In this document: positions 7,406-33,354 of the stretch, piece by piece
Layout: every line of letters starts with the position of its first letter
Position numbering within the stretch: the stretch's first letter is position 1
Virus record (IMG/VR): IMGVR_UViG_3300025195_000001
Source of the DNA: a virus
Strand: one strand, 5' to 3'
Length of the DNA: 43,628 bases
Notes under the pieces: generated by a model
The model's input: the letters and a program-made list of their open reading frames with translations, nothing else
Told to the model about the DNA's origin: nothing
Databases searched by the model: none
Translations under genes and position numbers: made by a program

Positions 7406-8014
7406 TTGGCGAATAACAACGAATTAAAACTCACATCGAGCGACACGCATTTTGAAAACATTCTCGCGTATTATATGGATGATAAAACGCCAGAAGAAGT
7501 TCGTCTGGCTCGTTTATCTGAAACCGATAAAAAATTAAAGAAGCGTTGGGAAGCTGCATTCACTATGCTCTTGGAATTTAGAAGCCCTGAAGATGCAGCA
7601 AAAAAACTTCAGGAGTTATTCAAAATAAGTAAAGCTACCGCTTATAGAGATGTGCAACGCTGTGAAATGTTGTTTGGCTCTTTTAAACGGTTTGATCGGG
7701 AAGCGTGGCGATATATTTCTATTGAACGTAAACACAAACTCTATCAAAATGCATTAAAGAAGGGAGACCTCGAACTGGCATATAAAGTCGATAAAGAAAT
7801 TGACAAATTACTAGGTCTTCACGAGGAAGAATCGCCTATCGACTTAGATAAAATAGCTGCTCAAGATTACAATATCATTATGAGCAATAAACAAGAACGC
7901 TTGATAAAACAAATTTTAGCAAGTGGAGGCGCTGTCAATATGAATGTTGATAATACTGTAGAGATTGATTTTGAAGAATTGAAAAATACCTCTGAAGATG
8001 GCGAAGAAGATTAG
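7406..8014 (+). CDS. Putative terminase small subunit
   Basis: 202 aa, immediately upstream of the large terminase and overlapping it by 17 nt. It has a helical, basic N-terminal half and an acidic C-terminus. The track start is a TTG and the first in-frame ATG is at 7475. Confidence 0.5.
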   Translation: MANNNELKLTSSDTHFENILAYYMDDKTPEEVRLARLSETDKKLKKRWEAAFTMLLEFRSPEDAAKKLQELFKISKATAYRDVQRCEMLFGSFKRFDREAWRYISIERKHKLYQNALKKGDLELAYKVDKEIDKLLGLHEEESPIDLDKIAAQDYNIIMSNKQERLIKQILASGGAVNMNVDNTVEIDFEELKNTSEDGEED

Positions 8015-9548
8015 AGGTAAACGCGGGAAGATCACTTTGAACTTTGCTCAAATGGTTGCCATTATGGCCAAAGCAAAAGTCAAATTTTTAGAGTGGGGAC
8101 GTGGTACCGGAAAAAGTACCATTCTCGCTTACTTTATGTTGATGATGGTAAAACATTTACCTCGTGCCACTTTTATTTTGGTTGGGAACACTTATGCTCA
8201 AGTGCTCTCGAATACCTTAAAATCTACCAAGGCAGCGCTTGAATTTTTCGGCATCTATGAAGATATAGATTATGTGGTTGGCTCAAGCCAAGGTAAACGA
8301 ATGGGGTTTAAAATGCCTTACGAAAAACCAAACCATTGGAAAAATATTATTCATTTTTCTAATGGGACCGTTTTTCAATTGGTGGGATTAGACAATCCTA
8401 ATAGTTCCAATGGTGGGCGTGGTATTAACTCTTCAGGGATTCTCGCAGATGAAGCTGCACTTCTTGATAATGAAAAACTTTCAATAAACGTAAAGAATAC
8501 CAACCGAGCATCTAAAAGTGGTATTTATGGTGATAGCCCTTGGTTATTATCTGAAACTTATGTGAGTTCAACTCCACTAACTAAAAAAGGGAAGTGGTTT
8601 ATTGATGGAGAAGAGTTGGCCAGAAAACAACCTGATAAGTATTTCTTTCACTCTGCAACGGCTCACTGGAATCTTGATAATGTACGTAGTGACTATTTCG
8701 AGTATATGCGCGACTCATATTCAAGTGAGTTGATTTACAACGCTGAGATGTTGAATAAACGTCCTAAAGAAATCGCAGACGGTTTCTACCCGCAGCTTAC
8801 GGAAGATCACTACTACACGAATAAAGACAACGATTATTTAGAGAGTATTCCTTTATGTGATATTAATGGCGATCCGCTTACCAATGATGATAAGCATTTT
8901 AATTCAAAACAGGATGCTGATGTAATTAAGTCTGAGCCTTTGATTATCTCTGTAGATTGGGGTGCAAACATTAACGCAATGACCGTGCACCAACTACAAG
9001 ATAATACTTGGTATGTATTGAAGGAATTCTTTGTGAAGTCTCCCAAGATCTTAGATCATTTATTTATTGAAGAGTTCCTGCCTTACTATTCAAGCCATCA
9101 AAATAGAACGGTTTATTTCTATTATGATCGCACTGGTAACAACCGTACAGCCAATAGTAAAATGACTTTTGCAGACCAAGCGAAAGAAATCATGGAAAAT
9201 CACGGATGGACCGTACACAATATGACTACTGGTTTGAACCCGAGTTACATCGATAAGTTTAGACTGCTGAATATTATGTTTAAAGATGATGGGCGCAAGC
9301 AGTTGCCCAAGATTAGAATCAATAAAACAAACTGCCCTAACCTAATCGTATCGATGGAACACGCTGAAGCATACGATCGTGGTCGTGGTCTTGAGAAAGA
9401 CAAACGATCTGAGCAACGCAAGGGAGTGGAGCAGGAACACGCTACCCACTTGAGTGATACCTTTGACTATCCCATCTTTGAAATGTTCTGGGATAAGTAC
9501 GTTGGTAATCACGTTAAATCTGAAGACCTCCCAATCTCGACATTCTAA
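7998..9548 (+). CDS. terL: Terminase large subunit
   Basis: 516 aa with Walker A-like WGRGTGKST near the N-terminus, ILADEAA (Walker B-like) and a C-terminal nuclease-sized domain. Confidence 0.85.
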   Translation: MAKKIRGKRGKITLNFAQMVAIMAKAKVKFLEWGRGTGKSTILAYFMLMMVKHLPRATFILVGNTYAQVLSNTLKSTKAALEFFGIYEDIDYVVGSSQGKRMGFKMPYEKPNHWKNIIHFSNGTVFQLVGLDNPNSSNGGRGINSSGILADEAALLDNEKLSINVKNTNRASKSGIYGDSPWLLSETYVSSTPLTKKGKWFIDGEELARKQPDKYFFHSATAHWNLDNVRSDYFEYMRDSYSSELIYNAEMLNKRPKEIADGFYPQLTEDHYYTNKDNDYLESIPLCDINGDPLTNDDKHFNSKQDADVIKSEPLIISVDWGANINAMTVHQLQDNTWYVLKEFFVKSPKILDHLFIEEFLPYYSSHQNRTVYFYYDRTGNNRTANSKMTFADQAKEIMENHGWTVHNMTTGLNPSYIDKFRLLNIMFKDDGRKQLPKIRINKTNCPNLIVSMEHAEAYDRGRGLEKDKRSEQRKGVEQEHATHLSDTFDYPIFEMFWDKYVGNHVKSEDLPISTF

Positions 9549-16971: not shown

Positions 16972-17694
16972 TTATTTTGGCAAGATCACACTTTTAGAAT
17001 TGGTATCAATGTCTTGAGAGTAAAAGTTAGGAACGGTATGTTCTTTAAAATCTTCATTAATAAATGCGTGCGGAATAAACTCTTCGATTTGTTTTTGGGT
17101 AAGATTTGGGTTAAGCCATTCGCCTTCCACTTCTGGATCTAGAACTAAGGGCATTCGCTTTTTCTTATTGTGTACATATTTAAAAAAGTCGTTGGCTTCT
17201 GTGGTGAGCAGCGTTACCGAAAATTCGGTATCTCCATCCATATCGATATCGCCATTGCCAATTTTGTTGTAAAGACCGGCAAACGCAAATAATTGATGAT
17301 CGGGTAAATAACAATATTTTGGTTCTGCTTTTCCTTTAAAATTATTGTCTGGATAGTGCGGTTCAAAAAAACCATCGGCAATAATTAAACAACGTCTGTG
17401 TAGCGCAGGATCTTTATAGGTTTTCTTTTGAAATACTTCTTCGCCTTTAGCATTCCAAGTTTTGTATTTGGAGTTTCTAAACTTTTCGATGTTGTTTTCG
17501 CTCCACTTCGGTATTAAGCCCCATTCCATCGGGTAGATGTGTTGCGGGTCCTCCATCGGGATGCAATACAGATTTGGGTACATATAACCGGCAGCAAAAT
17601 AATAAGGTTCGTAAAGCTCCGGGATAAGCATCGTAGCTTCAAAACGCTCTACGATCTGTTTTTCGGGTTTGGTGTTGGATGCGATATAGCACAT
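16972..17694 (-). CDS. SOS-response-associated peptidase (SRAP/YedK/HMCES family, abasic-site-binding protein)
   Basis: 240 aa starting MC (catalytic Cys2), with RRCLIIADGFFEP, FAFAGLY and RMPLVL, which match the conserved SRAP blocks. Confidence 0.9.
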   Translation of the reverse strand: MCYIASNTKPEKQIVERFEATMLIPELYEPYYFAAGYMYPNLYCIPMEDPQHIYPMEWGLIPKWSENNIEKFRNSKYKTWNAKGEEVFQKKTYKDPALHRRCLIIADGFFEPHYPDNNFKGKAEPKYCYLPDHQLFAFAGLYNKIGNGDIDMDGDTEFSVTLLTTEANDFFKYVHNKKKRMPLVLDPEVEGEWLNPNLTQKQIEEFIPHAFINEDFKEHTVPNFYSQDIDTNSKSVILPK

Positions 17695-22587: not shown

Positions 22588-23637
22588 TTATTTTTCTTCC
22601 TTATTAAAGTAAACCAGGTAGTAATACATCTGGCGCTCATCGTCCCATCCTTTCTCGATAAACTTTTCGGCACTTTCAGGATTAATAAAGTTGAGCTTGA
22701 TCTGAATGTTGGTGTCTAGGTTTATGAGGCTTTTCAGCTTTTTTTGTACGGTAGTTACGGCGGTGTTAGAAATGGGGAACTCGGTTAGATCTTCAATTTT
22801 GTATTTTGCGCCTTTTTCAGCTTTATAATTGCTGAACTCCGGGACCAACTCGGGGTTTTCGAGTACTTCATTTAAAAATGAATCTTCCTGAAACTCATCG
22901 TGCGATGCAAAATGATTCACTGCGCGGTTCATAAACATAATTTCTTGCTGCTTGTCTTCTGCTGGACGCACGACATCTTTGGCAAAATTCTCACAAAACT
23001 TCAGGTACTTTTTGGTATGAAAATCGCTGTCTTCCATTTCTTCTACACCTAGAAAATCTTCAATCCAATATTTGGTGTCGTAGCGGTTAGAATCGATAAA
23101 TAATACACGAGGTTCTTCTTCCAAAGTAATAATCGCACCTTTGTCTAATTTATTCAGGTTAACACCTTCCTTTAAGATGGCATCCAGACGGGTTTCTTTT
23201 TGCTCAAACTGAATAAACTCTTGCTTCACTTCACTTTTGAAAATGCCAATAGCAAAAACCTTTTCATTATTGATAAGTATATTTTCAATTTTACAGATAT
23301 AGAGTTCTCCGGTTTTTATATGCGGATGATTTCCGCAGCTATATAAGTGATATGCAATAGCTTCGTGTATTTTATTTGGTGGTACAAAATCACCTTCATC
23401 TTCAAAAATTTGTCTTTTACCAAATAATGATTGAATTGTTGATTCTTCAGAAAATTTATGAAACTGTAAGTCTTTCTCACGAAATGGTTTTAAGAAGAAT
23501 TCTTTTAACAGTGGTCTAATCTCGTCGTTAAGCTCGTAAGGTTCTTGGCTTAAAAACAATTGCTCGTTGCGAGCGCGGTTGCCTACCTTATGGATGTAAA
23601 GGTTCTCTAATTGGGCATTGTACAAATTGATGTTCAT
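22588..23637 (-). CDS. Nucleoid-associated protein (NdpA/YejK-like, NA37 family)
   Basis: 349 aa. The N-terminal LENLYIHKVGNR block is typical of Bacteroidetes members of this family, and the size fits. Confidence 0.55.
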   Translation of the reverse strand: MNINLYNAQLENLYIHKVGNRARNEQLFLSQEPYELNDEIRPLLKEFFLKPFREKDLQFHKFSEESTIQSLFGKRQIFEDEGDFVPPNKIHEAIAYHLYSCGNHPHIKTGELYICKIENILINNEKVFAIGIFKSEVKQEFIQFEQKETRLDAILKEGVNLNKLDKGAIITLEEEPRVLFIDSNRYDTKYWIEDFLGVEEMEDSDFHTKKYLKFCENFAKDVVRPAEDKQQEIMFMNRAVNHFASHDEFQEDSFLNEVLENPELVPEFSNYKAEKGAKYKIEDLTEFPISNTAVTTVQKKLKSLINLDTNIQIKLNFINPESAEKFIEKGWDDERQMYYYLVYFNKEEK

Positions 23638-25728: not shown

Positions 25729-27390
25729 TTATACATTTTGAATTTTCTCAAACTCCTTTTTAATCAGTTCGTTAAGGTTATCTTGCACCTGCTTGTTGCA
25801 GTTAAAATTCACATATTCATACACCTGATCTAAGCTGATGCGGCCAATGAGGTAATCTTTAATTTTATCTTGTGCTTTCTTTACATCGGTTTTTGCTCTC
25901 AGGCTTTTTTCTGCCCAAATTTTACGGCGGGAGAAACTTTCTACCTTTTCATCATCGAGCCTAAAGAAGCGATAAGCGTATTCAAAACTGTTATTTTCCT
26001 TGAAGGATCGGGCAGGATCAAAATATTTACTAGGGTAGACCGGTTGCCATTCTGGGTGATTCTTTTTCCATTTTTTCACTTCCTTAAGGACCTGGAGACA
26101 CTTCATCCAACGTTCGAAAGTGTTCGGCTTGCTTAATCTTTGCCCGTTAAAGTTGATAAACTTATCATTCATCCAAAGCTTATAAGCATTTACCCAAGTA
26201 CCGGGATGGCAATCGAGATCTGAAAAGATGCTCGCAGCATATTTAAAAATATCTTGGATGGCCAGTTCTTTAAAATCGTCGGGATGCAAAGCGCCGTAGT
26301 AAGCTTCGTGTCTGGCAATTTGCTCGGCAATCGGTTGGTATTTGTCGTGTTTACCGGCAGAAAGTTCGCGGCCCAGTGTGGCTTTTTCTACTAGATTGCA
26401 CGCTAAAACCTCGCTGAGCTCGTATTTTTTCGCGGCATTGCCCGAAATTTTTTCGGCATCCTTAAATTTTTTCGGCACCTTGCCTTTGGGTTTTTTGGTA
26501 GTATTTTTAGTAGCAATATAATCTGATGGCGCGTTAGCGACATCTCCTTTATCCCTTATCTTATACTTATCTAACAGATTCTTTCTACTAGATACATTGT
26601 TATGTTGAACTTTGTTGGTTCTCTCTTGGGTAACTGCCTGATTTTCAGTAGTACGATTTTTCGAACTTCCGTTGTCAGTAACGACTAGAATTTCAGCATT
26701 GAAAGCAATTTTAATGGCTCTGTTGGCTCCGCGAAATTGATAACCTACTAACACGCCACATTCTTCTAAACGTTCTCTATGGTGTCTTATCGTCTCTACA
26801 GTAACGGGTAAATTTCGGCATCCGTTACGTTCAGCTTCGACGATCTTGTTCGGGTATAGATCCATCTTGGGTAAATCACCCAAAACTTCAACGCCAAGTT
26901 TTTTGCGCACTTGCTTGCGCTTAAAAAGCTGCATGTTGTATTGGTGTAGAAAAGCGAGAAAGTATTTCTCGGTGTCGGGTTTTACTTCCTGGCGTAAATT
27001 ACGCTTGCGAAGTTGCGGGCCGTGTTTGGAGTTGTATTTCTCGACTGCTTCATTAAAAGCTTCCGGGGCGAGGTGTTTGTGTTGTTCTTTCCAGACTTGT
27101 TCTTGTATTTTTTGTTCGAGTGGAATGGAAGCCTGGCGACGGTGCCGGATCACTTCTTTGTTAAACTTGCGCACTTCAGCATTCTCGATCCAAACCTGCA
27201 TATTGTACTTTTTAATATGTTGGTTGTAATTGGCGAGCGTGGCCTTAAAATCTTGATTAGTAAGAATAGGGAAGATAAACTGTTGGCTTTCGCTCCGGTT
27301 TTCTTCTGAAGTGGTTGCGGGTTGTTTTTGCAAACCGTTAAGCTGCAAAATACTATTGGTAATACTACCAAGGGATCTAGGCGTGCTCAT
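25729..27390 (-). CDS. Large early protein with a wHTH-like segment (possible replication initiator or organiser)
   Basis: 553 aa, basic. VTVETIRHHRERLEECGVLVGY resembles a winged helix. No helicase, primase or polymerase motifs were seen. The function is inferred only from size and position. Confidence 0.35.
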   Translation of the reverse strand: MSTPRSLGSITNSILQLNGLQKQPATTSEENRSESQQFIFPILTNQDFKATLANYNQHIKKYNMQVWIENAEVRKFNKEVIRHRRQASIPLEQKIQEQVWKEQHKHLAPEAFNEAVEKYNSKHGPQLRKRNLRQEVKPDTEKYFLAFLHQYNMQLFKRKQVRKKLGVEVLGDLPKMDLYPNKIVEAERNGCRNLPVTVETIRHHRERLEECGVLVGYQFRGANRAIKIAFNAEILVVTDNGSSKNRTTENQAVTQERTNKVQHNNVSSRKNLLDKYKIRDKGDVANAPSDYIATKNTTKKPKGKVPKKFKDAEKISGNAAKKYELSEVLACNLVEKATLGRELSAGKHDKYQPIAEQIARHEAYYGALHPDDFKELAIQDIFKYAASIFSDLDCHPGTWVNAYKLWMNDKFINFNGQRLSKPNTFERWMKCLQVLKEVKKWKKNHPEWQPVYPSKYFDPARSFKENNSFEYAYRFFRLDDEKVESFSRRKIWAEKSLRAKTDVKKAQDKIKDYLIGRISLDQVYEYVNFNCNKQVQDNLNELIKKEFEKIQNV

Positions 27391-28201: not shown

Positions 28202-28375
28202 TTAAAAAAGGACGCGCATTTCTTGGGTATAAAGCTTTAACTGTCGCTTATAGATCTGCTGCAGTTCTTCCTTCTGTTGTGGGGTAACATTATAAAGTTT
28301 ATCTAGCCTTGTGAGGTTAGCTTTTAAGCGGGCAATTGCCGTTTTATAGAATATGCGGTCCTTCTTTACTTTCAT
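28202..28375 (-). CDS. Hypothetical protein
   Basis: The track ORF extends to 28405. The ATG at 28375 (MKVKKDRIF) overlaps the LuxR-type gene stop (TAATG) and is the likelier start. Confidence 0.45.
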   Translation of the reverse strand: MKVKKDRIFYKTAIARLKANLTRLDKLYNVTPQQKEELQQIYKRQLKLYTQEMRVLF

Positions 28376-28995
28376 TAGTTTATTACATTTGCGCGCATCG
28401 CACACATTAATAATCCGGTTTTGCTAAACACGTTCGCTTTTCTAAAAAATGAACGCTTATGTTGGTTAAAGGTTGAAACGGCAACACCAAGCTCCATCGC
28501 TACTACTTCATCTTTATAGTCTTCTGCAAATAAGTCTAGCATTTTCAATTCTCTAGGCTTTAAGGGGCTGCCGTTAAGTTTTATCGTTTTAAAGTTGAGT
28601 GAAACGCAATCTGTAGAATGCCGGTAGTTTTCCGGTTCTTGCAGATCACCGTTAATTATGTCTGGCGTATCGTCGAGGCCACCGTACATAAAATACGTGT
28701 ATAATTCTACTCGTCTGGTAAAAGAGAGGGGTTGGTGGTTATGTTGTAAAGCATTAATATGCTTTTGTGCTTCTTTGTTGGAGTTGAAGGCATTGGCAAG
28801 CAACGTAAAGTCTTTTTTATCGAGTTCTTTAAACTCGTGTGTTTTGCCGTTTTGTATAAATTGTACCTCCATCGTTTCTGGGCGACCAAAAAATTCTATT
28901 CTGGTGTCGTTTTGTAGCAACCCCGCAATTAGGTGTTGCACTTGTTGGTTGTTTGTTGTAAGTTTGTCCATAAGATGTTTTATTGATTCGTTCAT
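28375..28995 (-). CDS. LuxR/GerE-type HTH transcriptional regulator
   Basis: The C-terminus LKPRELKMLDLFAEDYKDEVVAMELGVAVSTFNQHKRSFFRKANV fits the LuxR-type HTH pattern. The start was moved to the ATG at 28995 (MNESIKHL) because the upstream 75 nt form a perfect 11-bp hairpin plus the TAACGCTTAA motif. Confidence 0.6.
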   Translation of the reverse strand: MNESIKHLMDKLTTNNQQVQHLIAGLLQNDTRIEFFGRPETMEVQFIQNGKTHEFKELDKKDFTLLANAFNSNKEAQKHINALQHNHQPLSFTRRVELYTYFMYGGLDDTPDIINGDLQEPENYRHSTDCVSLNFKTIKLNGSPLKPRELKMLDLFAEDYKDEVVAMELGVAVSTFNQHKRSFFRKANVFSKTGLLMCAMRANVIN

Positions 28996-29002
28996 TAAAA
29001 TA

Positions 29003-29013
29003 TTAAGCGTTAA
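29003..29013 (-). promoter_or_regulatory. TTAACGCTTAA motif, copy 4
   Basis: The plus strand reads ttaagcgttaa, 8 nt upstream of the ATG at 28995. Confidence 0.4.
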
Positions 29014-29054
29014 GTCCTGAAGGGAGTTCCAGTCCAACTTCAGGACTTTTTTTT
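29012..29054. terminator. Perfect 11-bp stem hairpin between the first two early genes and the LuxR-type gene
   Basis: aagtcctgaag (29012..29022) pairs with cttcaggactt (29038..29048). A T-tract follows on the plus strand, which is an A-tract preceding the hairpin on the minus strand. Confidence 0.5.
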
Positions 29055-29099
29055 GTGCTGTTATCTCCAACAGCGATGAGCAGGGTTTGCTCGAGTAAC

Positions 29100-29300
29100 C
29101 TACGGTTCATTAAATATGTGGTGAGAAACATTATTTTTATTTTTTGGTGTCGTATCGCGAAATGCCATAATGCCTAAAGCTATGATCACTACTAAAACGA
29201 ACCATAAAAAACGGTTGCCGGCGCGATACGCTGCTTTTTCTGCCTTGAGCTCGCGAGCGCGGTCTAAGGCTTTTTGGTGTTTAACTTGCTTCTTGTACAT
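29100..29300 (-). CDS. Small membrane protein
   Basis: 66 aa with a central TM helix (FLWFVLVVIIALGIMAF). Confidence 0.45.
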   Translation of the reverse strand: MYKKQVKHQKALDRARELKAEKAAYRAGNRFLWFVLVVIIALGIMAFRDTTPKNKNNVSHHIFNEP

Positions 29301-29571
29301 TGGTAAGGTTTTTAGCTTTATCGAATAATGAATTTCGCGCTTGGCTTTGGCGAGTTTTACGCTCTACCAATTCTGAGATAAATGCCCAGATTCCTTTTTC
29401 TACTTTCTCGTGTCGAACTTTACCGTGAAATACATTTGAGATAAATGGCTGAGAAAACGGGTTTTTCCATTGGTTTAAATAACCATGCTCAGTGAGATAA
29501 TTTCTAATCTTGGTAATATGCTGTGCACCAATTAGATCGATATACACTTTTTTTTGCTCCTCCGACATCAT
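29281..29571 (-). CDS. First early-leftward gene (Cro-position protein)
   Basis: 96 aa, divergent from the cI-like gene across a 149-bp operator region. The functional analogy to Cro is positional only. Confidence 0.45.
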   Translation of the reverse strand: MMSEEQKKVYIDLIGAQHITKIRNYLTEHGYLNQWKNPFSQPFISNVFHGKVRHEKVEKGIWAFISELVERKTRQSQARNSLFDKAKNLTNVQEAS

Positions 29572-29642
29572 AGTATTCTGCTATTGCTCAAACAAATACA
29601 ATATTATATATTTGCTAGTAGTTAATTAATTGCTTGTTAAGG

Positions 29643-29650
29643 CAAATATA
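29643..29650 (-). promoter_or_regulatory. -7 box TATATTTG of the early-leftward promoter
   Basis: A perfect TAnnTTTG on the minus strand (plus-strand caaatata). The operator palindrome lies immediately upstream of it. Confidence 0.5.
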
Positions 29651-29657
29651 AAACAAT

Positions 29658-29676
29658 GTTGCAGAATATTGCAAGT
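29658..29676. promoter_or_regulatory. Operator-like palindrome, copy 1 (TTGCA-N6-TGCAA)
   Basis: gttgcagaatattgcaagt. Further TTGCAA half-sites occur at 29681..29686 and 29704..29709. Confidence 0.6.
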
Positions 29677-29720
29677 AAAATTGCAAAAAACTGCTATAAA
29701 TATTTGCAATATTTTGCTTT

Positions 29721-30149
29721 ATGCTGAAAATCAAAGAGATAAGAGAGAATAAGAATATATCACAAGATAAGCTTGTTGAACTTACTGGAATTCCTAAACG
29801 AACCTACGTAAATTACGAAAATGGGAAATCCGATATACCATTCTCAAAGTTGCAGAATATTGCAAGTGCTTTGAATGTAAGAGTACAGGATTTTATTGAG
29901 GAGAAAAAAGTGGATAAAGTAAATGAAACTCCTCCACCTTATGAAGATGAAGTAAATCTCTTGAGTTTAAAAAAAGACCTTAAAACAATTTATCAAGGTT
30001 TGACCACTAATTTTAATACCATTAGTGAAGGTGTGTTTCACGTTCTGCAGGACACACAAGAAATAAAAAGATTTATTGGTGAGCTAGACCCCAAAGCCAT
30101 TAATAATGCAAGTGAAGGATTGAATAAATTTTTAGAAGAACATAAATAA
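29721..30149 (+). CDS. XRE-family HTH repressor (cI-like), without a peptidase S24 domain
   Basis: 142 aa. The N-terminus KEIRENKNISQDKLVELTGIPKRTYVNYENGKSDIPFSKLQNIASAL is a classic XRE HTH. The C-terminal 80 aa lack a Ser/Lys autoprotease pattern. Confidence 0.8.
   Translation: MLKIKEIRENKNISQDKLVELTGIPKRTYVNYENGKSDIPFSKLQNIASALNVRVQDFIEEKKVDKVNETPPPYEDEVNLLSLKKDLKTIYQGLTTNFNTISEGVFHVLQDTQEIKRFIGELDPKAINNASEGLNKFLEEHK
29849..29867. promoter_or_regulatory. Operator-like palindrome, copy 2, inside the repressor coding sequence
   Basis: An exact 19-bp copy of 29658..29676. It encodes KLQNIAS of the HTH recognition region. Confidence 0.5.
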
Positions 30150-30155
30150 TGGGGT

Positions 30156-31064
30156 ATGGAAACTAACCAAGATTTAAATTACCGCGCTTTTACAGGTAAG
30201 GCCGAATATGACAAAGCCATCAATTCATTAAAAGGAATCCTTCACGGAATCCGGCTTGATGATGAAATAAATTTTAAAGAGTTACAGGAACTTGATCGAT
30301 GGGCAGAAATTCATTCTGAATTGGTTCATCAAAATCCATTTTATGAATTTATCCAGACAATTAGAACATCTATACGTGATGAAGAAATTCCTGTTAGAGA
30401 AGCAATCGAAGATTTATATTGGTTAACTCAGAAATACGATAAAGAAAACGTGTTTTATGATACTGTATCATCAGATCTACAGATATTGCAGGGAATTTGT
30501 CATGGTATTTTAGCAGACGGTATTATTAAAGACAAAGAAGTTACAGAATTGCAAAAATGGCTAGATAATAATCTGCATTTATCTAGTTATTACCCTTATG
30601 ATGAACTTCGAACTGTCTTAAGTAAAATTCTTGCAGATGGAATTGTCGATGAAGAAGAGAAAATTTTACTGAAAGCTTATTTTAATCAGTTTGTTCAACT
30701 TACCGATAAAGAATTAACCACTAAAATAAAGGATGAAGTCAAAGCCACTAAAATTTCAGGACTATGTGCATTAGATCCTGAAATAAGTTTTGAAAATAAT
30801 CTATTCTGTATTACAGGAAAGCTACAACGGGAAACCAGAAAAGTACTTTCTGAAAAAATTGTCGAGCTTGGCGGCACCTTTAAAAATGGTATTACAAAAT
30901 CTACCAATTACTTAGTGGTTGGTGACAACGGTAATCCCGCCTGGGCATTTGCCTGTTATGGTAGAAAAGTTGAGGAAGCTTTAAAAATGAGAAGGGATGG
31001 TGCGAATATCACCATCGTACATGAGCTTGATTTGTGGGATTATATTGATGAAATGAATAGTTAA
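30156..31064 (+). CDS. Protein with two TerB-like repeats and a C-terminal BRCT domain
   Basis: 302 aa. The repeated units LKGILHGIRLDDEINFKELQEL and LQGICHGILADGIIKDKEVTEL / ILADGIVDEEEKILL show the TerB-like ADG...E...L pattern. The C-terminus LFCITGKL...RKVLSEKIVELGG...STNYLVVGDNG fits the LigA-type BRCT pattern. It starts 7 nt after the cI stop. Confidence 0.7.
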   Translation: METNQDLNYRAFTGKAEYDKAINSLKGILHGIRLDDEINFKELQELDRWAEIHSELVHQNPFYEFIQTIRTSIRDEEIPVREAIEDLYWLTQKYDKENVFYDTVSSDLQILQGICHGILADGIIKDKEVTELQKWLDNNLHLSSYYPYDELRTVLSKILADGIVDEEEKILLKAYFNQFVQLTDKELTTKIKDEVKATKISGLCALDPEISFENNLFCITGKLQRETRKVLSEKIVELGGTFKNGITKSTNYLVVGDNGNPAWAFACYGRKVEEALKMRRDGANITIVHELDLWDYIDEMNS

Positions 31065-31066
31065 TT

Positions 31067-31672
31067 ATGAAGGGTCTTTATATAGTATTGTTTCTATTAC
31101 CAAGTTTTTGTTTTGCGCAGTTAACCTATAATTCTGATCGTACTTTCTCCTACGAAGAAGTTGTCGAGATCGATAGTCTTTCAAAAAATGAAATTCATCA
31201 AAAGGTAATGAGTTGGTTTCAGAAAAAATATAATAGCACCAATTCTGAAGTTAGAATAAACTCACCCGAAGAAATACTTTTCAATTTAGTGGAGTCCATA
31301 GATTATAAAGTAAACGGTGTGCCTTATCCCGCAACTGTCGATTTCACCATGAATATTAAACTGAAAGATGGTAAATATAAATTGACAATAGAAGATTTAT
31401 ATAGCAACATCAATGACTTTAGAAGAAAAGTTAGTGATCAACAAATGACTTTTGAAGAATATAAAATTTTCTATAAATCTCAAATTGAAGAAATGGAAGG
31501 CTACACGAAAGAAGCTGCTTTAAAAATGCTGAAAAACGATAAGCAAATGATAACTGTTTACAATGTAGCTATGAAATCTAATAAAGATATTTTCGAGAAT
31601 AGTAAGGCAACAATTATAGAGACAGTAAATAGCTTGAAAGAAAACCTTGAAGGCTCAGATGAAGATTGGTAA
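31067..31672 (+). CDS. Secreted protein (signal peptide, possibly DUF4468-like)
   Basis: 201 aa with the N-terminus MKGLYIVLFLLPSFCFAQ. It starts 3 nt after the BRCT gene stop. The family assignment comes from memory of Bacteroidetes proteins and is unverified. Confidence 0.5.
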   Translation: MKGLYIVLFLLPSFCFAQLTYNSDRTFSYEEVVEIDSLSKNEIHQKVMSWFQKKYNSTNSEVRINSPEEILFNLVESIDYKVNGVPYPATVDFTMNIKLKDGKYKLTIEDLYSNINDFRRKVSDQQMTFEEYKIFYKSQIEEMEGYTKEAALKMLKNDKQMITVYNVAMKSNKDIFENSKATIIETVNSLKENLEGSDEDW

Positions 31673-31948: not shown

Positions 31949-32003
31949 CTTAAAATCCAATGAACATTAGTTCGTACGGGTTCAAGTCCCGTCCCGAGTA
32001 CCA
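31949..32003 (+). other. attP core: 3' portion of a tRNA-Leu(UAA)-like gene, from the anticodon loop to CCA
   Basis: It contains the anticodon loop cttaaaa, tccaa, a long variable arm gaac-atta-gttc, the T arm acggg-ttcaagt-cccgt, the acceptor 3' strand cccgagt, a discriminator a and cca. The 5' half is absent: the upstream cagaa cannot pair with tccaa. Confidence 0.75.
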
Positions 32004-32007
32004 AGCG

Positions 32008-32034
32008 CAAAACCCCTGTTTTTACAGGGGTTTT
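32008..32034 (+). terminator. Terminator hairpin following the tRNA fragment
   Basis: aaaacccctg-ttttta-caggggtttt. Confidence 0.7.
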
Positions 32035-32092
32035 CGTGTTTTTAGCCTCGACTTTTTCAATATGAAAAAAGACGAGAACACAACAAATGAGC

Positions 32093-32109
32093 ATAGAAAC
32101 GGCCATAGA
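32093..32109 (+). promoter_or_regulatory. Candidate integrase arm-type site (P' arm)
   Basis: atagaaacggccataga, a direct repeat of 31850..31866 on the other side of the core. Confidence 0.5.
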
Positions 32110-32124
32110 TTTTTTGAGTTTTCT

Positions 32125-33354
32125 ATGAATAAAAAACGCTATTCTAATCCGAAAATTTATATTCCTCGTAAGAATGGAAGGCCGTCGGTAAGTGCAAAAA
32201 GTAGATGGCACGTTTATTTTTATTGGCGAACCGAAAAAGATGGTCCGCTAGATAAATTATTTACCTTTAGAAAAGACATCAACCGATTAAAAACTCCTGC
32301 AGAAAGAAATGCTGCAGCAAAGTCTCTTCAATCAGCCTTACAAGTTGCGCTTGATCGTGGTTGGAATCCGTTAACCAATACGACCATCGATGAAAGGAAT
32401 TCTCGCGATTCGATGTTATTGAAAGAAGCACTCGAATTTTCTTATAAAATATTAGAACGCACCAAATCGACTGCTACGCTAAACGGTTATAATTTTCATC
32501 TGAACAAATTTTTAGAGTGGGCAAAGATTAACGGTTATATTGGGATGGACGTGCGAAAATTTGGAGTAGATGAGTTTTACCAATTTTTCGATTACTTAAG
32601 GTTTGAATATGTAAACCCGAAAACCGGAGACAGTTTAAGCGGTACTTCTATCAATAACACCAAACGATCGCTTTCATCTTTATTCGGGACCTTAAAGAAA
32701 GAACGCATCATCGCTGAAAACTTTGTAAAAGACATTCCGAAGGTTGACCAGGAACCTGTCAACAATAAAGCGTTTACTTTAAAGGAACTGGAGCAGATCA
32801 AAAAAGCGGTACTTAAAGAAGATCCTTACCTGATCCATATCATTCGGTTTATGATGTACCCATTACTTCGCGTTAGAGAAATTTGCCGTTTGCAAGTGAA
32901 AGATATTGATGCCGAACTTTCGATGTTGAAGGTAAAAACCAAAACCGAAGTTTTGAGTTACCGCAGGATCATTAAAAAGCTTGAACCTTCTATTAAAGAA
33001 CTTAAGCTTGAAAATGAACCGCCAAATTTTCATGTTTTCACGAATCTAGATCAACCCAAAGATTGGAGCGATGCGACTTTAAAAAGTAGAACCGATCATT
33101 TTGGGAAACGCTTTAAGAAGATTAAAGACAAACTTGGCTTCGGGCGAGAATATGGATTGTATTCTTTTCGGCATACCGCAATATTAGACCTTTACAATTC
33201 TAAAGTTGATGCAGGATTGCCGGAGCAACAAATACTATTTGAGTTAATGCCCATCACCGGGCATAAATCTGTCGCCGGGATTAAAAATTATTTGCGCCAT
33301 CATAAAAAATCGATCCCTGCAGATCATTCAGATATTTATACGATTGATATTTAA
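32125..33354 (+). CDS. int: Tyrosine recombinase / phage integrase
   Basis: It carries LLRVREICRLQVKDI (Arg I region), YSFRHTAI (HxxR) and GHKSVAGIKNYL (catalytic Tyr). The track ORF starts at 31960 inside the tRNA fragment. The plausible starts are the ATG at 32125 (MNKKRYSN, after the P' arm repeat) or the ATG at 32062. Confidence 0.9.
   Translation: MNKKRYSNPKIYIPRKNGRPSVSAKSRWHVYFYWRTEKDGPLDKLFTFRKDINRLKTPAERNAAAKSLQSALQVALDRGWNPLTNTTIDERNSRDSMLLKEALEFSYKILERTKSTATLNGYNFHLNKFLEWAKINGYIGMDVRKFGVDEFYQFFDYLRFEYVNPKTGDSLSGTSINNTKRSLSSLFGTLKKERIIAENFVKDIPKVDQEPVNNKAFTLKELEQIKKAVLKEDPYLIHIIRFMMYPLLRVREICRLQVKDIDAELSMLKVKTKTEVLSYRRIIKKLEPSIKELKLENEPPNFHVFTNLDQPKDWSDATLKSRTDHFGKRFKKIKDKLGFGREYGLYSFRHTAILDLYNSKVDAGLPEQQILFELMPITGHKSVAGIKNYLRHHKKSIPADHSDIYTIDI

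What the first reader, a model, noticed from the sequence alone, without database searches (positions are those of the whole stretch)
29721..31064. cI-like repressor lacking an autocleavage domain is co-transcribed with a TerB-like/BRCT protein
The 142-aa XRE repressor has only an HTH plus a short helical tail, with no S24/LexA-like Ser-Lys domain. Seven nucleotides downstream on the same strand is a 302-aa protein with two TerB-like repeats (ADG...E...L pattern) and a C-terminal LigA-type BRCT domain. BRCT domains bind DNA ends or nicks, or phosphorylated and ADP-ribosylated partners.

The gene pair sits in the classic lysogeny-expressed moron slot between the repressor and attP/int. Two hypotheses follow from that position. 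The protein could be a DNA-damage or infection sensor that couples to the non-cleavable repressor, acting as an induction or anti-repressor partner. Alternatively it could be a prophage-encoded superinfection-exclusion or abortive-infection factor. I know of no characterised phage function for this domain combination.
Basis: partly seen in the sequence, partly recalled or inferred. Interest (0 to 1): 0.75.

Follow-up and report, generated by a model that had tools for sequence, protein, structure and literature searches.

The report
Prophage repressor-operon BRCT/TerB-like protein
A temperate flavobacterial phage carries, in the same operon as its repressor, an uncharacterised 302-aa protein with two TerB-like repeats and a DNA-ligase-type BRCT domain; its family sits next to repressors in many unrelated phages and next to Shango and other anti-phage systems in bacterial chromosomes, which makes it a good candidate immunity gene.

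Summary
A 142-aa XRE repressor with no S24 domain (29721-30149) is followed after 6 nt by a 302-aa protein (30156-31064). Two nt later comes a secreted DUF4468 protein, then a tRNA-3'-end-like attP and the integrase.

The 302-aa protein has two homologous TerB-like repeats (hhalign E 3.6e-16) and an RFC1/LigA-class BRCT domain with its phosphate pocket conserved. It belongs to a large uncharacterised family, PHROG 3989, with 706 clusters at E<=1e-30.

Vibrio phage K139 orf2 is a full-length homologue in the same order: cI-orf2-glo-int, annotated as transcribed from promoter PL.

In 71 viral contigs the gene lies downstream of a repressor and upstream of a recombinase. The repressors include S24 self-cleaving ones, so an induction partner for a non-cleavable repressor is not favoured.

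In 30 of 80 Bacteroidota chromosomal loci the gene is adjacent to a Shango system (SngABC). Others sit by Hhe-like or OLD-like genes. Ten of 149 family representatives are fused to a DEDDh exonuclease.

Best reading (about 0.45): a lysogen-expressed, DNA-end- or nick-binding immunity or exclusion factor. I found no paper on its function.

The parts
29281..29571 (-). 96-aa ORF in the cro position, divergent from the repressor
   Evidence: ORF list. No Pfam or PHROG hit. Homologues (cluster c34) occupy the same divergent position next to the XRE gene in L001 and L003.
29572..29720 (.). Divergent control region with operator-like inverted repeats built on TTGCAA / GCAAATAT cores
   Evidence: the repeat finder: I1 29661-29677 / 29701-29717 is 88% complementary; I2 29598-29615 / 29642-29659 is 83%. 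Sequence. The operator role is inferred.
29721..30149 (+). XRE/cI-type repressor, 142 aa: HTH at aa 4-58 plus a helical tail, no S24 and no M78 partner
   Evidence: Pfam HTH_3 8e-13 with no S24 hit. PHROG transcriptional repressor families phrog_8 and phrog_3. Nearest solved HTH domains are C.BclI, PezA and P2 C. No M78 peptidase anywhere in the window.
30156..31064 (+). K139 Orf2-family protein (PHROG 3989), 302 aa: two TerB-like repeats plus a C-terminal BRCT
   Evidence: phrog_3989 1.6e-75, full length. Identical to a protein named 'BRCT domain-containing protein [Mesonia mobilis]'. BLASTP to K139 Orf2: 31% identity, E 7e-33. AF2 pLDDT 84.3.
30219..30407 (+). TerB-like repeat 1 (aa 22-84), with D35, E42 and W49 invariant
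   Evidence: hhalign internal repeat E 3.6e-16. TerB Pfam hit over the equivalent region of homologue P0142, aa 27-125, 25.7 bits, above the gathering score. Residue conservation.
30477..30662 (+). TerB-like repeat 2 (aa 108-169), with D121, E128 and W135 invariant
   Evidence: hhalign. Sub-threshold Pfam TerB hit at aa 159-193. Residue conservation.
30768..31058 (+). BRCT domain of the RFC1/LigA (DNA-binding) class, aa ~205-301; putative phosphate pocket T220-G221, R228, K248
   Evidence: Pfam BRCT 32.7 bits, above the gathering score. PDB profile hits: RFC1 3e-8, LigA 2e-6. Foldseek probability 1.0. RFC1 alignment. T220, G221 and R228 are near-invariant across 151 loci.
31067..31672 (+). Secreted DUF4468 protein, 201 aa, third gene of the operon
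   Evidence: Pfam DUF4468 3e-11. The N-terminus MKGLYIVLFLLPSFCFAQ looks like a signal peptide. It starts 2 nt after the BRCT stop. It occupies the position that Glo holds in K139 but shows no sequence similarity to it.
31976..32003 (+). attP core: tRNA/tmRNA 3'-end-like fragment (T-arm ACGGG-TTCAAGT-CCCGT, acceptor 3' strand, A, CCA)
   Evidence: Read directly from the sequence. Weak Rfam tmRNA 3'-end match, E 0.086. ARAGORN finds no complete tRNA, as expected for a fragment. The attP role is inferred.
32009..32034 (+). Terminator-like hairpin AAAACCCCTGTTTTTACAGGGGTTTT plus a T-run, directly after the tRNA-like fragment
   Evidence: scan_promoters_terminators.
32063..33354 (+). Tyrosine integrase; the longest ORF starts at 31960, but the likely start is the ATG at 32063, downstream of attP
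   Evidence: Pfam Phage_integrase 3.4e-10. phrog_1 4.6e-29. Sequence.

Best explanation
The 302-aa gene is a stand-alone member of the K139 Orf2 / PHROG 3989 family.

Shown:
- It is a two-part protein. The N-terminal part is a duplicated TerB-like helical module. The C-terminal part is a single BRCT of the RFC1/LigA class, with the residues that align to the RFC1 phosphate pocket conserved.
- It lies in a + strand block (repressor, this gene, secreted DUF4468 protein, then attP and int) opposite to most of the other large ORFs; the terminase block is the other + strand set.
- Spacers inside the block are 6 nt and 2 nt, and no internal terminator is predicted.
- In many unrelated temperate phages the family occupies the same interval between repressor and recombinase.
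- In bacterial chromosomes the family is built into Shango operons and sits beside other DNA-targeting defence genes.
- In some relatives the whole module is fused to a DnaQ-type 3'-5' exonuclease.

Inferred:
- It is transcribed with the repressor in lysogens, as lambda rexAB is with cI.
- Its BRCT binds 5'-phosphorylated DNA ends or nicks of an incoming or replicating foreign genome.
- The TerB-like repeats couple that recognition to a partner. The partner could be a host helicase/ATPase or nuclease such as Shango. Alternatively the repeats simply occlude the DNA end, blocking circularisation, ligation or replication.
- The net effect would be lysogen-protective immunity against other phages or mobile elements, alongside the envelope protein encoded next to it.
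For: Architecture:
- BRCT evidence.
- TerB-like repeat evidence.

Operon:
- Spacers and absence of + strand terminators.
- The K139 GenBank record annotates promoter PL ('transcription of lysogenic operon') and a lysogenic transcription start site upstream of cI-orf2(BRCT)-glo-int, with glo noted as a periplasmic phage-exclusion protein.

Recurrent slot in phages:
- Of 71 viral loci, 36 have an XRE gene on the same strand at position -1 or -2, and 31 have a recombinase downstream.
- XRE-cluster genes occur 83 times upstream against 3 times downstream among the commonest positions listed for the 90-member cluster.
- The same layout occurs in Pseudomonas phage Marin, and pneumophage IPP43 has a DEDDh exonuclease-BRCT fusion in that slot.

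Defence association in chromosomes:
- Of 80 Bacteroidota genomic loci, 30 carry SngA/B/C within 4 genes. In 24 the gene is directly upstream of SngA, and in 4 it lies one or two genes downstream of SngC.
- Nine loci have Hhe-like genes and 7 have OLD-like genes; 39 of 80 have at least one of the three.
- A Pseudomonadota copy sits divergently next to a canonical Shango.
- Remaining contexts include PLD nucleases, restriction-modification, MkoB, Nhi, AbiO and PDC-S46.

Fusions and adjacency:
- Ten of 149 family representatives are fused to a DEDDh exonuclease, in both domain orders.
- A DEDDh gene is adjacent in 12 loci.
- There is a weak match to the PADLOC candidate PDC-S48.

Conservation:
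- The same key residues are conserved in phage, Shango-linked and other copies.
Against: - No phenotype exists for any member. All functional evidence is guilt by association.
- The window phage carries no partner enzyme: no SngABC, DEDDh, Hhe, OLD or M78 homologue. A stand-alone mechanism therefore has to be assumed.
- Some chromosomal copies lie among housekeeping genes.
- The TerB assignment is sub-threshold in this protein. No solved TerB structure was retrieved by Foldseek.
- The locus sets were retrieved with two conserved peptide patterns. The census therefore covers the conserved core of the family only. The genomic set is the best 80 of 226 hits.
- DNA binding by the BRCT is inferred from alignment to RFC1 and LigA, not tested.
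Confidence: 0.45

Rival explanations
1. Anti-defence decoy. The phage carries only the sensor or adaptor part of a host defence (Shango, or exonuclease-BRCT systems). It uses this part to occupy the DNA ends or the partner-binding site, protecting its own genome during establishment of lysogeny or after induction.
For: Chromosomal homologues are integral to Shango operons or fused to exonucleases, whereas the window copy is solo. All conserved residues are retained, as a competitive binder would need.
Against: - The gene is on the lysogenic strand in the repressor operon, not among the early lytic genes on the other strand.
- Ten viral loci carry the DEDDh partner next to it.
- The family shows no homology to SngA itself (hhalign E 0.67).
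- The family is common in phages of taxa where no Shango linkage was seen. In the NJ tree the Shango-linked copies are a derived Bacteroidota group.
Confidence: 0.17
2. Induction sensor or anti-repressor partner. The BRCT detects DNA damage and relays it to a repressor that cannot cleave itself.
For: - The gene is adjacent to, and likely co-transcribed with, a repressor that lacks S24.
- BRCT proteins act in damage signalling elsewhere (general knowledge).
- In 22 of 71 viral loci an M78 (ImmA/IrrE-type) peptidase gene is in the same module.
Against: - The same family follows S24 self-cleaving repressors and a P2/186-type CI.
- Adjacency to the repressor is broken by another gene in the closest relatives L001 and L003.
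- About half of the genomic copies sit in defence operons with no repressor, and some are isolated among housekeeping genes.
Confidence: 0.1
3. Helper for the prophage's own DNA transactions, such as integration, excision, nick sealing or replication restart, for example by recruiting host LigA-like activities to nicks.
For: The gene lies between repressor and integrase/attP. The BRCT is the type found in LigA, RFC1 and the PR1 phage DNA ligase B subunit. Some records annotate relatives as 'NAD-dependent DNA ligase'.
Against: - There is no ligase, adenylation or OB domain.
- The family sits next to both tyrosine and serine recombinases. From general knowledge, neither class needs a ligase.
- The Shango and defence-island contexts have no recombinase.
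Confidence: 0.1

Closest known systems
Vibrio cholerae phage K139 (kappa family) orf2 in the cI-orf2-glo-int lysogenic operon
   Same: - Full-length homologue: 301 aa, 31% identity, E 7e-33.
- Same gene order: repressor, BRCT protein, exported protein, integrase, with attP next to int on the far side in K139 rather than between the exported-protein gene and int as here.
- The K139 record annotates the lysogenic promoter PL and a lysogenic transcription start site upstream of cI.
   Different: - The K139 repressor is a P2/186-type CI, not a short XRE.
- Glo and the DUF4468 protein are unrelated in sequence.
- K139 Orf2 has SHGRKIE where this protein has CYGRKVE.
- K139 orf2 is itself uncharacterised in every source I could read. 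Nesper et al. 1999 is not held.
Shango anti-phage system (SngA TerB protein, SngB BrxD-like ATPase, SngC Lhr-like helicase)
   Same: - In 30 of 80 Bacteroidota loci a close homologue (about 50-55% identity) is within 4 genes of SngABC, usually directly upstream on the same strand.
- Both contain TerB-type helical modules.
   Different: - The window has no SngA, SngB or SngC.
- The protein is not homologous to SngA.
- Published Shango is described as a three-gene system with no BRCT component.
- The 17 Bacteroidota SngA proteins next to this gene hit only TerB_C, not TerB or TerB_N.
Lambda rexAB, lactic-acid-bacteria phage Ltp and K139 glo: exclusion genes in the lysogeny module
   Same: The position and orientation match: in the lysogeny module, on the repressor's strand, between the repressor and the integrase. 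For glo this layout is shown; for rexAB and Ltp it rests on general knowledge.
   Different: There is no sequence or domain similarity. No exclusion phenotype has been shown for this family.
PADLOC candidate PDC-S48 and pneumophage 'exonuclease' genes (DEDDh exonuclease + BRCT)
   Same: - The C-terminal helical segment plus BRCT matches: aa 151-258 against PDC-S48 positions 274-378, E 6.5e-6.
- In pneumophages the gene is next to the integrase.
- In 10 family representatives the full module is fused to the same kind of exonuclease.
   Different: The window protein has no exonuclease domain. PDC-S48 is only a candidate system.
BRCT domains of RFC1 p140 and bacterial LigA
   Same: These are the best sequence and fold matches. 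The T-G...R...K pocket aligns.
   Different: Those BRCT domains are parts of a clamp-loader subunit or a ligase. Here the BRCT is attached to TerB-like repeats, with an extra loop (DNGNPAWAFACY) before the GRKVE helix.

Membership tests
BRCT domain (Pfam PF00533), RFC1/LigA DNA-binding class | Profile match above the curated threshold | tested here: met
   32.7 bits against a gathering score of 21.3, aa 212-267. 49 of the 51 aligned sequences hit BRCT.
BRCT domain (Pfam PF00533), RFC1/LigA DNA-binding class | BRCT alpha/beta fold | tested here: met
   AF2 model with strands and helices at aa 216-301. Foldseek probability 1.0 to the RFC1, XRCC1, PARP4 and Rev1 BRCT domains.
BRCT domain (Pfam PF00533), RFC1/LigA DNA-binding class | Conserved phosphate-binding pocket (T/S-G, R, K) | tested here: met
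   T220-G221, R228 and K248 align with the RFC1 pocket positions (which RFC1 residues form the pocket is from my own knowledge). T220, G221 and R228 are near-invariant across 151 loci; K248 is less so.
BRCT domain (Pfam PF00533), RFC1/LigA DNA-binding class | Binding of 5'-phosphorylated DNA ends or nicks | not testable with these tools
   Needs EMSA or fluorescence anisotropy with 5'-P and 5'-OH substrates.
TerB (Pfam PF05099, TerB-like clan) | Profile match above the curated threshold in this protein | tested here: not met
   15.2 bits against 24.4, aa 159-193.
TerB (Pfam PF05099, TerB-like clan) | Profile match in full-length homologues (transitive homology) | tested here: met
   15 of the 51 aligned sequences hit TerB (best 2.8e-6) and 15 of 51 hit DUF533. 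P0142 scores 25.7 bits, above the gathering score, at aa 27-125.
TerB (Pfam PF05099, TerB-like clan) | Structural match to a solved TerB | tested here: inconclusive
   The N-terminal model (pLDDT 87.9) found nothing better than E 0.41 in PDB and 0.57 in BFVD. Small helical repeats are hard for Foldseek.
K139 Orf2 / PHROG 3989 family | Full-length homology | tested here: met
   phrog_3989 1.6e-75 over aa 8-298. K139 Orf2 E 7e-33.
K139 Orf2 / PHROG 3989 family | Location between prophage repressor and recombinase on the lysogenic strand | tested here: met
   Window layout. K139, Marin and IPP43. Census of viral loci.
Shango defence system | SngA + SngB + SngC encoded together | tested here: not met
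   No window ORF matches HMMs built from the SngA, SngB and SngC neighbours at E <= 1. The window gene is a relative of a Shango-associated gene, not part of a Shango system.
ImmR/ImmA-type immunity module | M78 (ImmA/IrrE) metallopeptidase next to the XRE repressor | tested here: not met
   No M78 HMM hit and no HExxH motif in window ORFs of 80 aa or more.
LexA/lambda-cI-type self-cleaving repressor | Peptidase_S24 domain | tested here: not met
   Only HTH families hit the 142-aa protein.
PADLOC PDC-S48 | DEDDh exonuclease domain fused to the BRCT region | tested here: not met
   Only aa 151-258 match the C-terminal part of the profile. There is no exonuclease domain.
Superinfection-exclusion or prophage-encoded defence genes (functional class) | Protection of the lysogen from other phages | not testable with these tools
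   Needs plaque assays on lysogens with and without the gene.

The most novel reading that the evidence does not exclude
The two-TerB-like-repeats-plus-BRCT module is a portable sensor of foreign DNA ends or nicks. Bacteria plug it into different effectors: Shango SngABC, DnaQ-type exonucleases, Hhe-like helicase-nucleases and OLD-family nucleases. Temperate phages from several phyla carry it solo in the repressor operon as an immunity gene.

This reading would define a four-gene Shango subtype in Bacteroidota, in which SngA lacks a detectable TerB domain and the BRCT protein supplies the TerB-like module in trans. It would also give Shango its first proposed trigger-recognition component.
Probability: 0.3. 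Interest if true: 0.8.

Novelty: new member of a known kind. Interest (0 to 1): 0.6.

Why it matters
The mechanism of Shango is not described in the papers I read, and the role of TerB domains in defence is stated there to be unclear. A conserved BRCT/TerB-like gene built into Shango operons suggests how the system might recognise DNA.

The same family lies in the lysogenic operon of the experimentally studied cholera phage K139. A single orf2 deletion there could therefore test whether this is a widespread, overlooked class of prophage immunity gene.

If instead it proves to be an anti-defence or induction factor, that would also fill a gap. The family has 706 clusters (50% identity) at E<=1e-30 and no assigned function.

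Tried and rejected
- hhalign of the family against 17 Bacteroidota SngA proteins gave no homology (E 0.67). The protein is not a copy of SngA.
- Foldseek with the N-terminal domain against PDB and BFVD gave nothing significant.
- HMMs for M78 peptidase, DEDDh, Hhe, OLD and SngABC found nothing in the window ORFs.
- ARAGORN found no tRNA in the window. Rfam gave only a weak tmRNA 3'-end match at the attP fragment.
- The attP fragment is not present in related prophage loci. tRNA scans of 7 related loci gave no att information.
- DUF4468 protein against K139 Glo: no similarity.
- NCBIfam gave only BRCT-region matches to LigA and a DnaQ-BRCT model.
- A crude signal-peptide count around the gene showed only a weak excess of exported proteins at positions ±1 and ±2.
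- Literature searches (Shango/TerB/BRCT, BRCT/prophage/anti-phage, K139/BRCT, SngA/B/C) found no paper on this family.
- Nesper et al. 1999 (PMC93736) and Anantharaman et al. 2012 are not held.
Full report
**What is in the window**

- The 142-aa protein (29721-30149, +) matches HTH_3 at aa 4-58 (E 8e-13). It has no Peptidase_S24 match. Its nearest solved HTH relatives are C.BclI, PezA and the P2 C repressor.
- It is divergent from a 96-aa ORF across a 149-bp region. That region holds several imperfect inverted repeats built on TTGCAA / GCAAATAT cores.
- Six nucleotides after its stop codon the 302-aa ORF starts.
- Two nucleotides after that ORF's stop, a 201-aa DUF4468 protein with a signal-peptide-like N-terminus starts.
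- No + strand terminator is predicted inside this three-gene block.
- Downstream lies a fragment with the form of a tRNA or tmRNA 3' end, at 31976-32003: T-arm ACGGG-TTCAAGT-CCCGT, acceptor strand, then A and CCA. A strong hairpin with a T-run follows, then a tyrosine integrase whose likely start is 32063.
- I read this fragment as attP. This confirms that the block lies between the repressor and attP/int.

Most of the other large ORFs are on the - strand, apart from the terminase block. Identical copies of the locus occur on circularly permuted contigs of about 43.5 kb in many assemblies, never on longer contigs. The window is therefore a complete temperate phage genome. The source name attached to the identical protein is Mesonia mobilis.

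**What the 302-aa protein is**

The BRCT domain is well supported.
- It is above Pfam's gathering score.
- The family profile hits the RFC1 BRCT (3e-8) and the LigA BRCT (2e-6) in PDB.
- A confident AF2 model (pLDDT 84.3) matches BRCT structures at probability 1.0.
- The residues that align with the RFC1 phosphate pocket (T220-G221, R228, K248) are conserved.

The TerB part needs more care.
- In this protein the Pfam TerB hit is sub-threshold.
- Foldseek retrieved no solved structure for the well-predicted nine-helix N-terminal domain.
- However, 15 of the 51 aligned sequences hit TerB and 15 hit DUF533. One homologue is above threshold over aa 27-125.
- A profile of aa 10-100 aligns to a profile of aa 98-198 at E 3.6e-16.

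The N-terminal half is therefore a tandem duplication of a TerB-like unit. Each copy carries an invariant D-x6-E-x6-W motif.

**How widespread the family is**

- The protein matches PHROG 3989 (function unknown) at 1.6e-75.
- It has 857 and 2094 homologues in two word-indexed searches, the second seeded from a Methylocystis prophage copy.
- A profile search of 1.84 billion representatives gives 706 clusters at E<=1e-30.
- Nearly all members are about 300 aa long.

**Context in phages**

Among 71 IMG/VR loci, the gene sits downstream of an XRE gene on the same strand at -1 or -2 in 36 loci. It sits upstream of a tyrosine or serine recombinase in 31. M78 peptidases are nearby in 22 loci and DEDDh exonucleases in 10. 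These counts are lower bounds, because some upstream HTH and M78 proteins fell outside the clusters.

The asymmetry is a useful internal control. XRE-cluster genes lie upstream 83 times and downstream 3 times among the commonest positions listed for the 90-member cluster.

Annotated GenBank phages show the same layout.
- Vibrio phage K139 and its relatives have cI, orf2, glo and int. The record annotates promoter PL ('transcription of lysogenic operon') and a lysogenic transcription start site upstream of cI, and notes glo as a periplasmic phage-exclusion protein.
- K139 Orf2 is a full-length homologue of the window protein (E 7e-33).
- Pseudomonas phage Marin has cro | CI followed by a shorter BRCT protein.
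- Pneumophage IPP43 has a DEDDh-BRCT fusion next to int.

The repressors upstream belong to several mechanistic classes. They include S24 self-cleaving repressors (Marin, L118, L100), a P2/186-type CI (K139), repressors with an M78 peptidase gene nearby, and short XRE proteins. In the two closest relatives of the window gene (L001, 66% identity; L003), a lipoprotein or secreted-protein gene lies between the repressor and the BRCT gene.

The gene is thus a recurrent resident of the interval between repressor and integrase. It is not a fixed partner of non-cleavable repressors.

**Context in chromosomes**

Among the best 80 of 226 genomic loci, all Bacteroidota, 30 have at least two of SngA, SngB and SngC within four genes.
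- In 24 the BRCT gene is directly upstream of SngA on the same strand.
- In 4 it lies one or two genes downstream of SngC.
- The PADLOC matches for the neighbours are strong: SngB 4e-168 and SngC 2e-210.

Nine loci have an Hhe/PDC-S37-like helicase-nuclease and seven an OLD/GajA-like ATPase. In all, 39 of 80 have at least one of the three. The rest show a scatter of other defence-type genes and border housekeeping genes.

A Pseudomonadota homologue lies divergently beside a canonical Shango whose SngA has TerB_N, TerB and TerB_C. Two other Pseudomonadota copies are isolated among housekeeping genes.

The 17 Bacteroidota SngA proteins next to the gene hit only TerB_C. This raises the idea that the BRCT protein supplies the TerB-like part in trans. 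The Pseudomonadota case shows this is not the whole story.

The published descriptions of Shango that I could read give three genes and no BRCT component.

**Fusions**

Ten of the 149 best family representatives carry a DnaQ/PolC-type DEDDh exonuclease fused to the complete module. Nine fusions are N-terminal and one is C-terminal. The PADLOC candidate PDC-S48 is a related exonuclease-BRCT architecture.

All recurrent partners are therefore DNA-acting enzymes typical of defence loci.

**Phylogeny and conservation**

- In a neighbour-joining tree, the window protein groups with L001 and L003, which have an XRE repressor two genes upstream, and with L011, which has an integrase nearby. This group lies near the base of the Bacteroidota clade.
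- The rest of that clade is mostly chromosomal, with Shango-linked copies in several subclades.
- The non-Bacteroidota viral copies are mostly in repressor/recombinase contexts. The tree is only a distance tree with midpoint rooting.
- Key residues are equally conserved in all context classes. The CYGRKVE and HLxxYYPYD motifs were the search patterns, so their conservation is by construction.

**Interpretation**

The best-supported reading is a lysogen-expressed immunity or exclusion factor. It would recognise DNA ends or nicks through its BRCT, then either recruit a host effector or block end processing. The steps that are shown and those that are inferred are listed under the best explanation.

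The rivals are:
- an anti-defence decoy;
- a helper for the prophage's own DNA transactions.

The induction idea is weakened by the variety of repressor classes and by the repressor-free chromosomal contexts. The decoy idea is weakened by the lysogenic-strand position and by phage loci that carry the exonuclease partner. Neither is excluded.

**Novelty**

The locus is a new member of a kind already sequenced: the K139-type lysogenic operon with an Orf2-family gene. The family has no assigned function.

The links to Shango, to other defence genes and to exonuclease fusions were not found in any paper I could search. The key 1999 K139 paper and the 2012 TerB survey were not readable here, so prior mention cannot be ruled out.

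Noticed in passing
window 31976-32034: A tRNA/tmRNA 3'-end-like fragment (T-arm, acceptor strand, CCA) followed by a strong terminator hairpin lies just upstream of the integrase. It looks like an attP that would rebuild the 3' end of a host tRNA or tmRNA gene. The integrase's longest ORF (from 31960) overlaps it, so the real start is probably 32063.
   Followed up: partly
window 31067-31672: The third gene of the repressor operon encodes a secreted DUF4468 (TBP-like fold) protein. Exported or lipoprotein genes also flank the BRCT gene in L001, L003 and K139 (Glo) without being homologous. This suggests a shared slot for envelope-acting exclusion proteins.
   Followed up: partly
L006, L007, L018, L019, L022, L028, L036, L038, L039, L042, L048, L063, L065, L067-L069, L072-L075, L077-L080 (gene at about 8000-8900, SngA from about 8900): In Bacteroidota a four-gene arrangement recurs: BRCT/TerB-like, SngA, SngB, SngC. 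The SngA proteins hit only TerB_C (17 of 17), not TerB or TerB_N. This may be an undescribed Shango subtype.
   Followed up: partly
P0243, P0250, P0254, P0255, P0281, P0317, P0328, P0380, P0383 (N-terminal) and P0248 (C-terminal): The whole two-TerB-like-plus-BRCT module is fused to a DnaQ/PolC-type DEDDh 3'-5' exonuclease in either order. Other variants carry N-terminal transmembrane segments (P0263, P0326) or a second BRCT (P0244).
   Followed up: partly
window 16972-17694 (-): The phage encodes an SRAP (SOS-response-associated peptidase, YedK/HMCES-like) protein, Pfam E 2.3e-38.
   Followed up: no
L153-L155: The same phage appears as circularly permuted contigs of about 43.5 kb in 41 blocks of public assemblies and never inside a contig longer than 50 kb. 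It is mostly seen as a free or episomal genome rather than integrated.
   Followed up: no
window 28375-29070 (-) and 22588-23637 (-): The strand opposite the repressor block carries a LuxR/GerE-type regulator (a cluster shared with L003, L081 and L082) and an NA37 nucleoid-associated-protein homologue. The 553-aa ORF at 25729-27390 has no Pfam or PHROG match.
   Followed up: no
L164 6001-8462: A copy assigned to Pseudomonas shirazensis is 55% identical to the flavobacterial protein. It is followed by a DUF3010 gene and a Ser/Thr protein kinase gene. This suggests either recent transfer or a mis-assigned contig.
   Followed up: no
L159 4544-5722 and L160 2532-3710: A conserved 392-aa protein with no Pfam hit lies between the canonical Shango SngA and the divergently oriented BRCT gene in a Pseudomonadota genome and a metagenome contig.
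   Followed up: no
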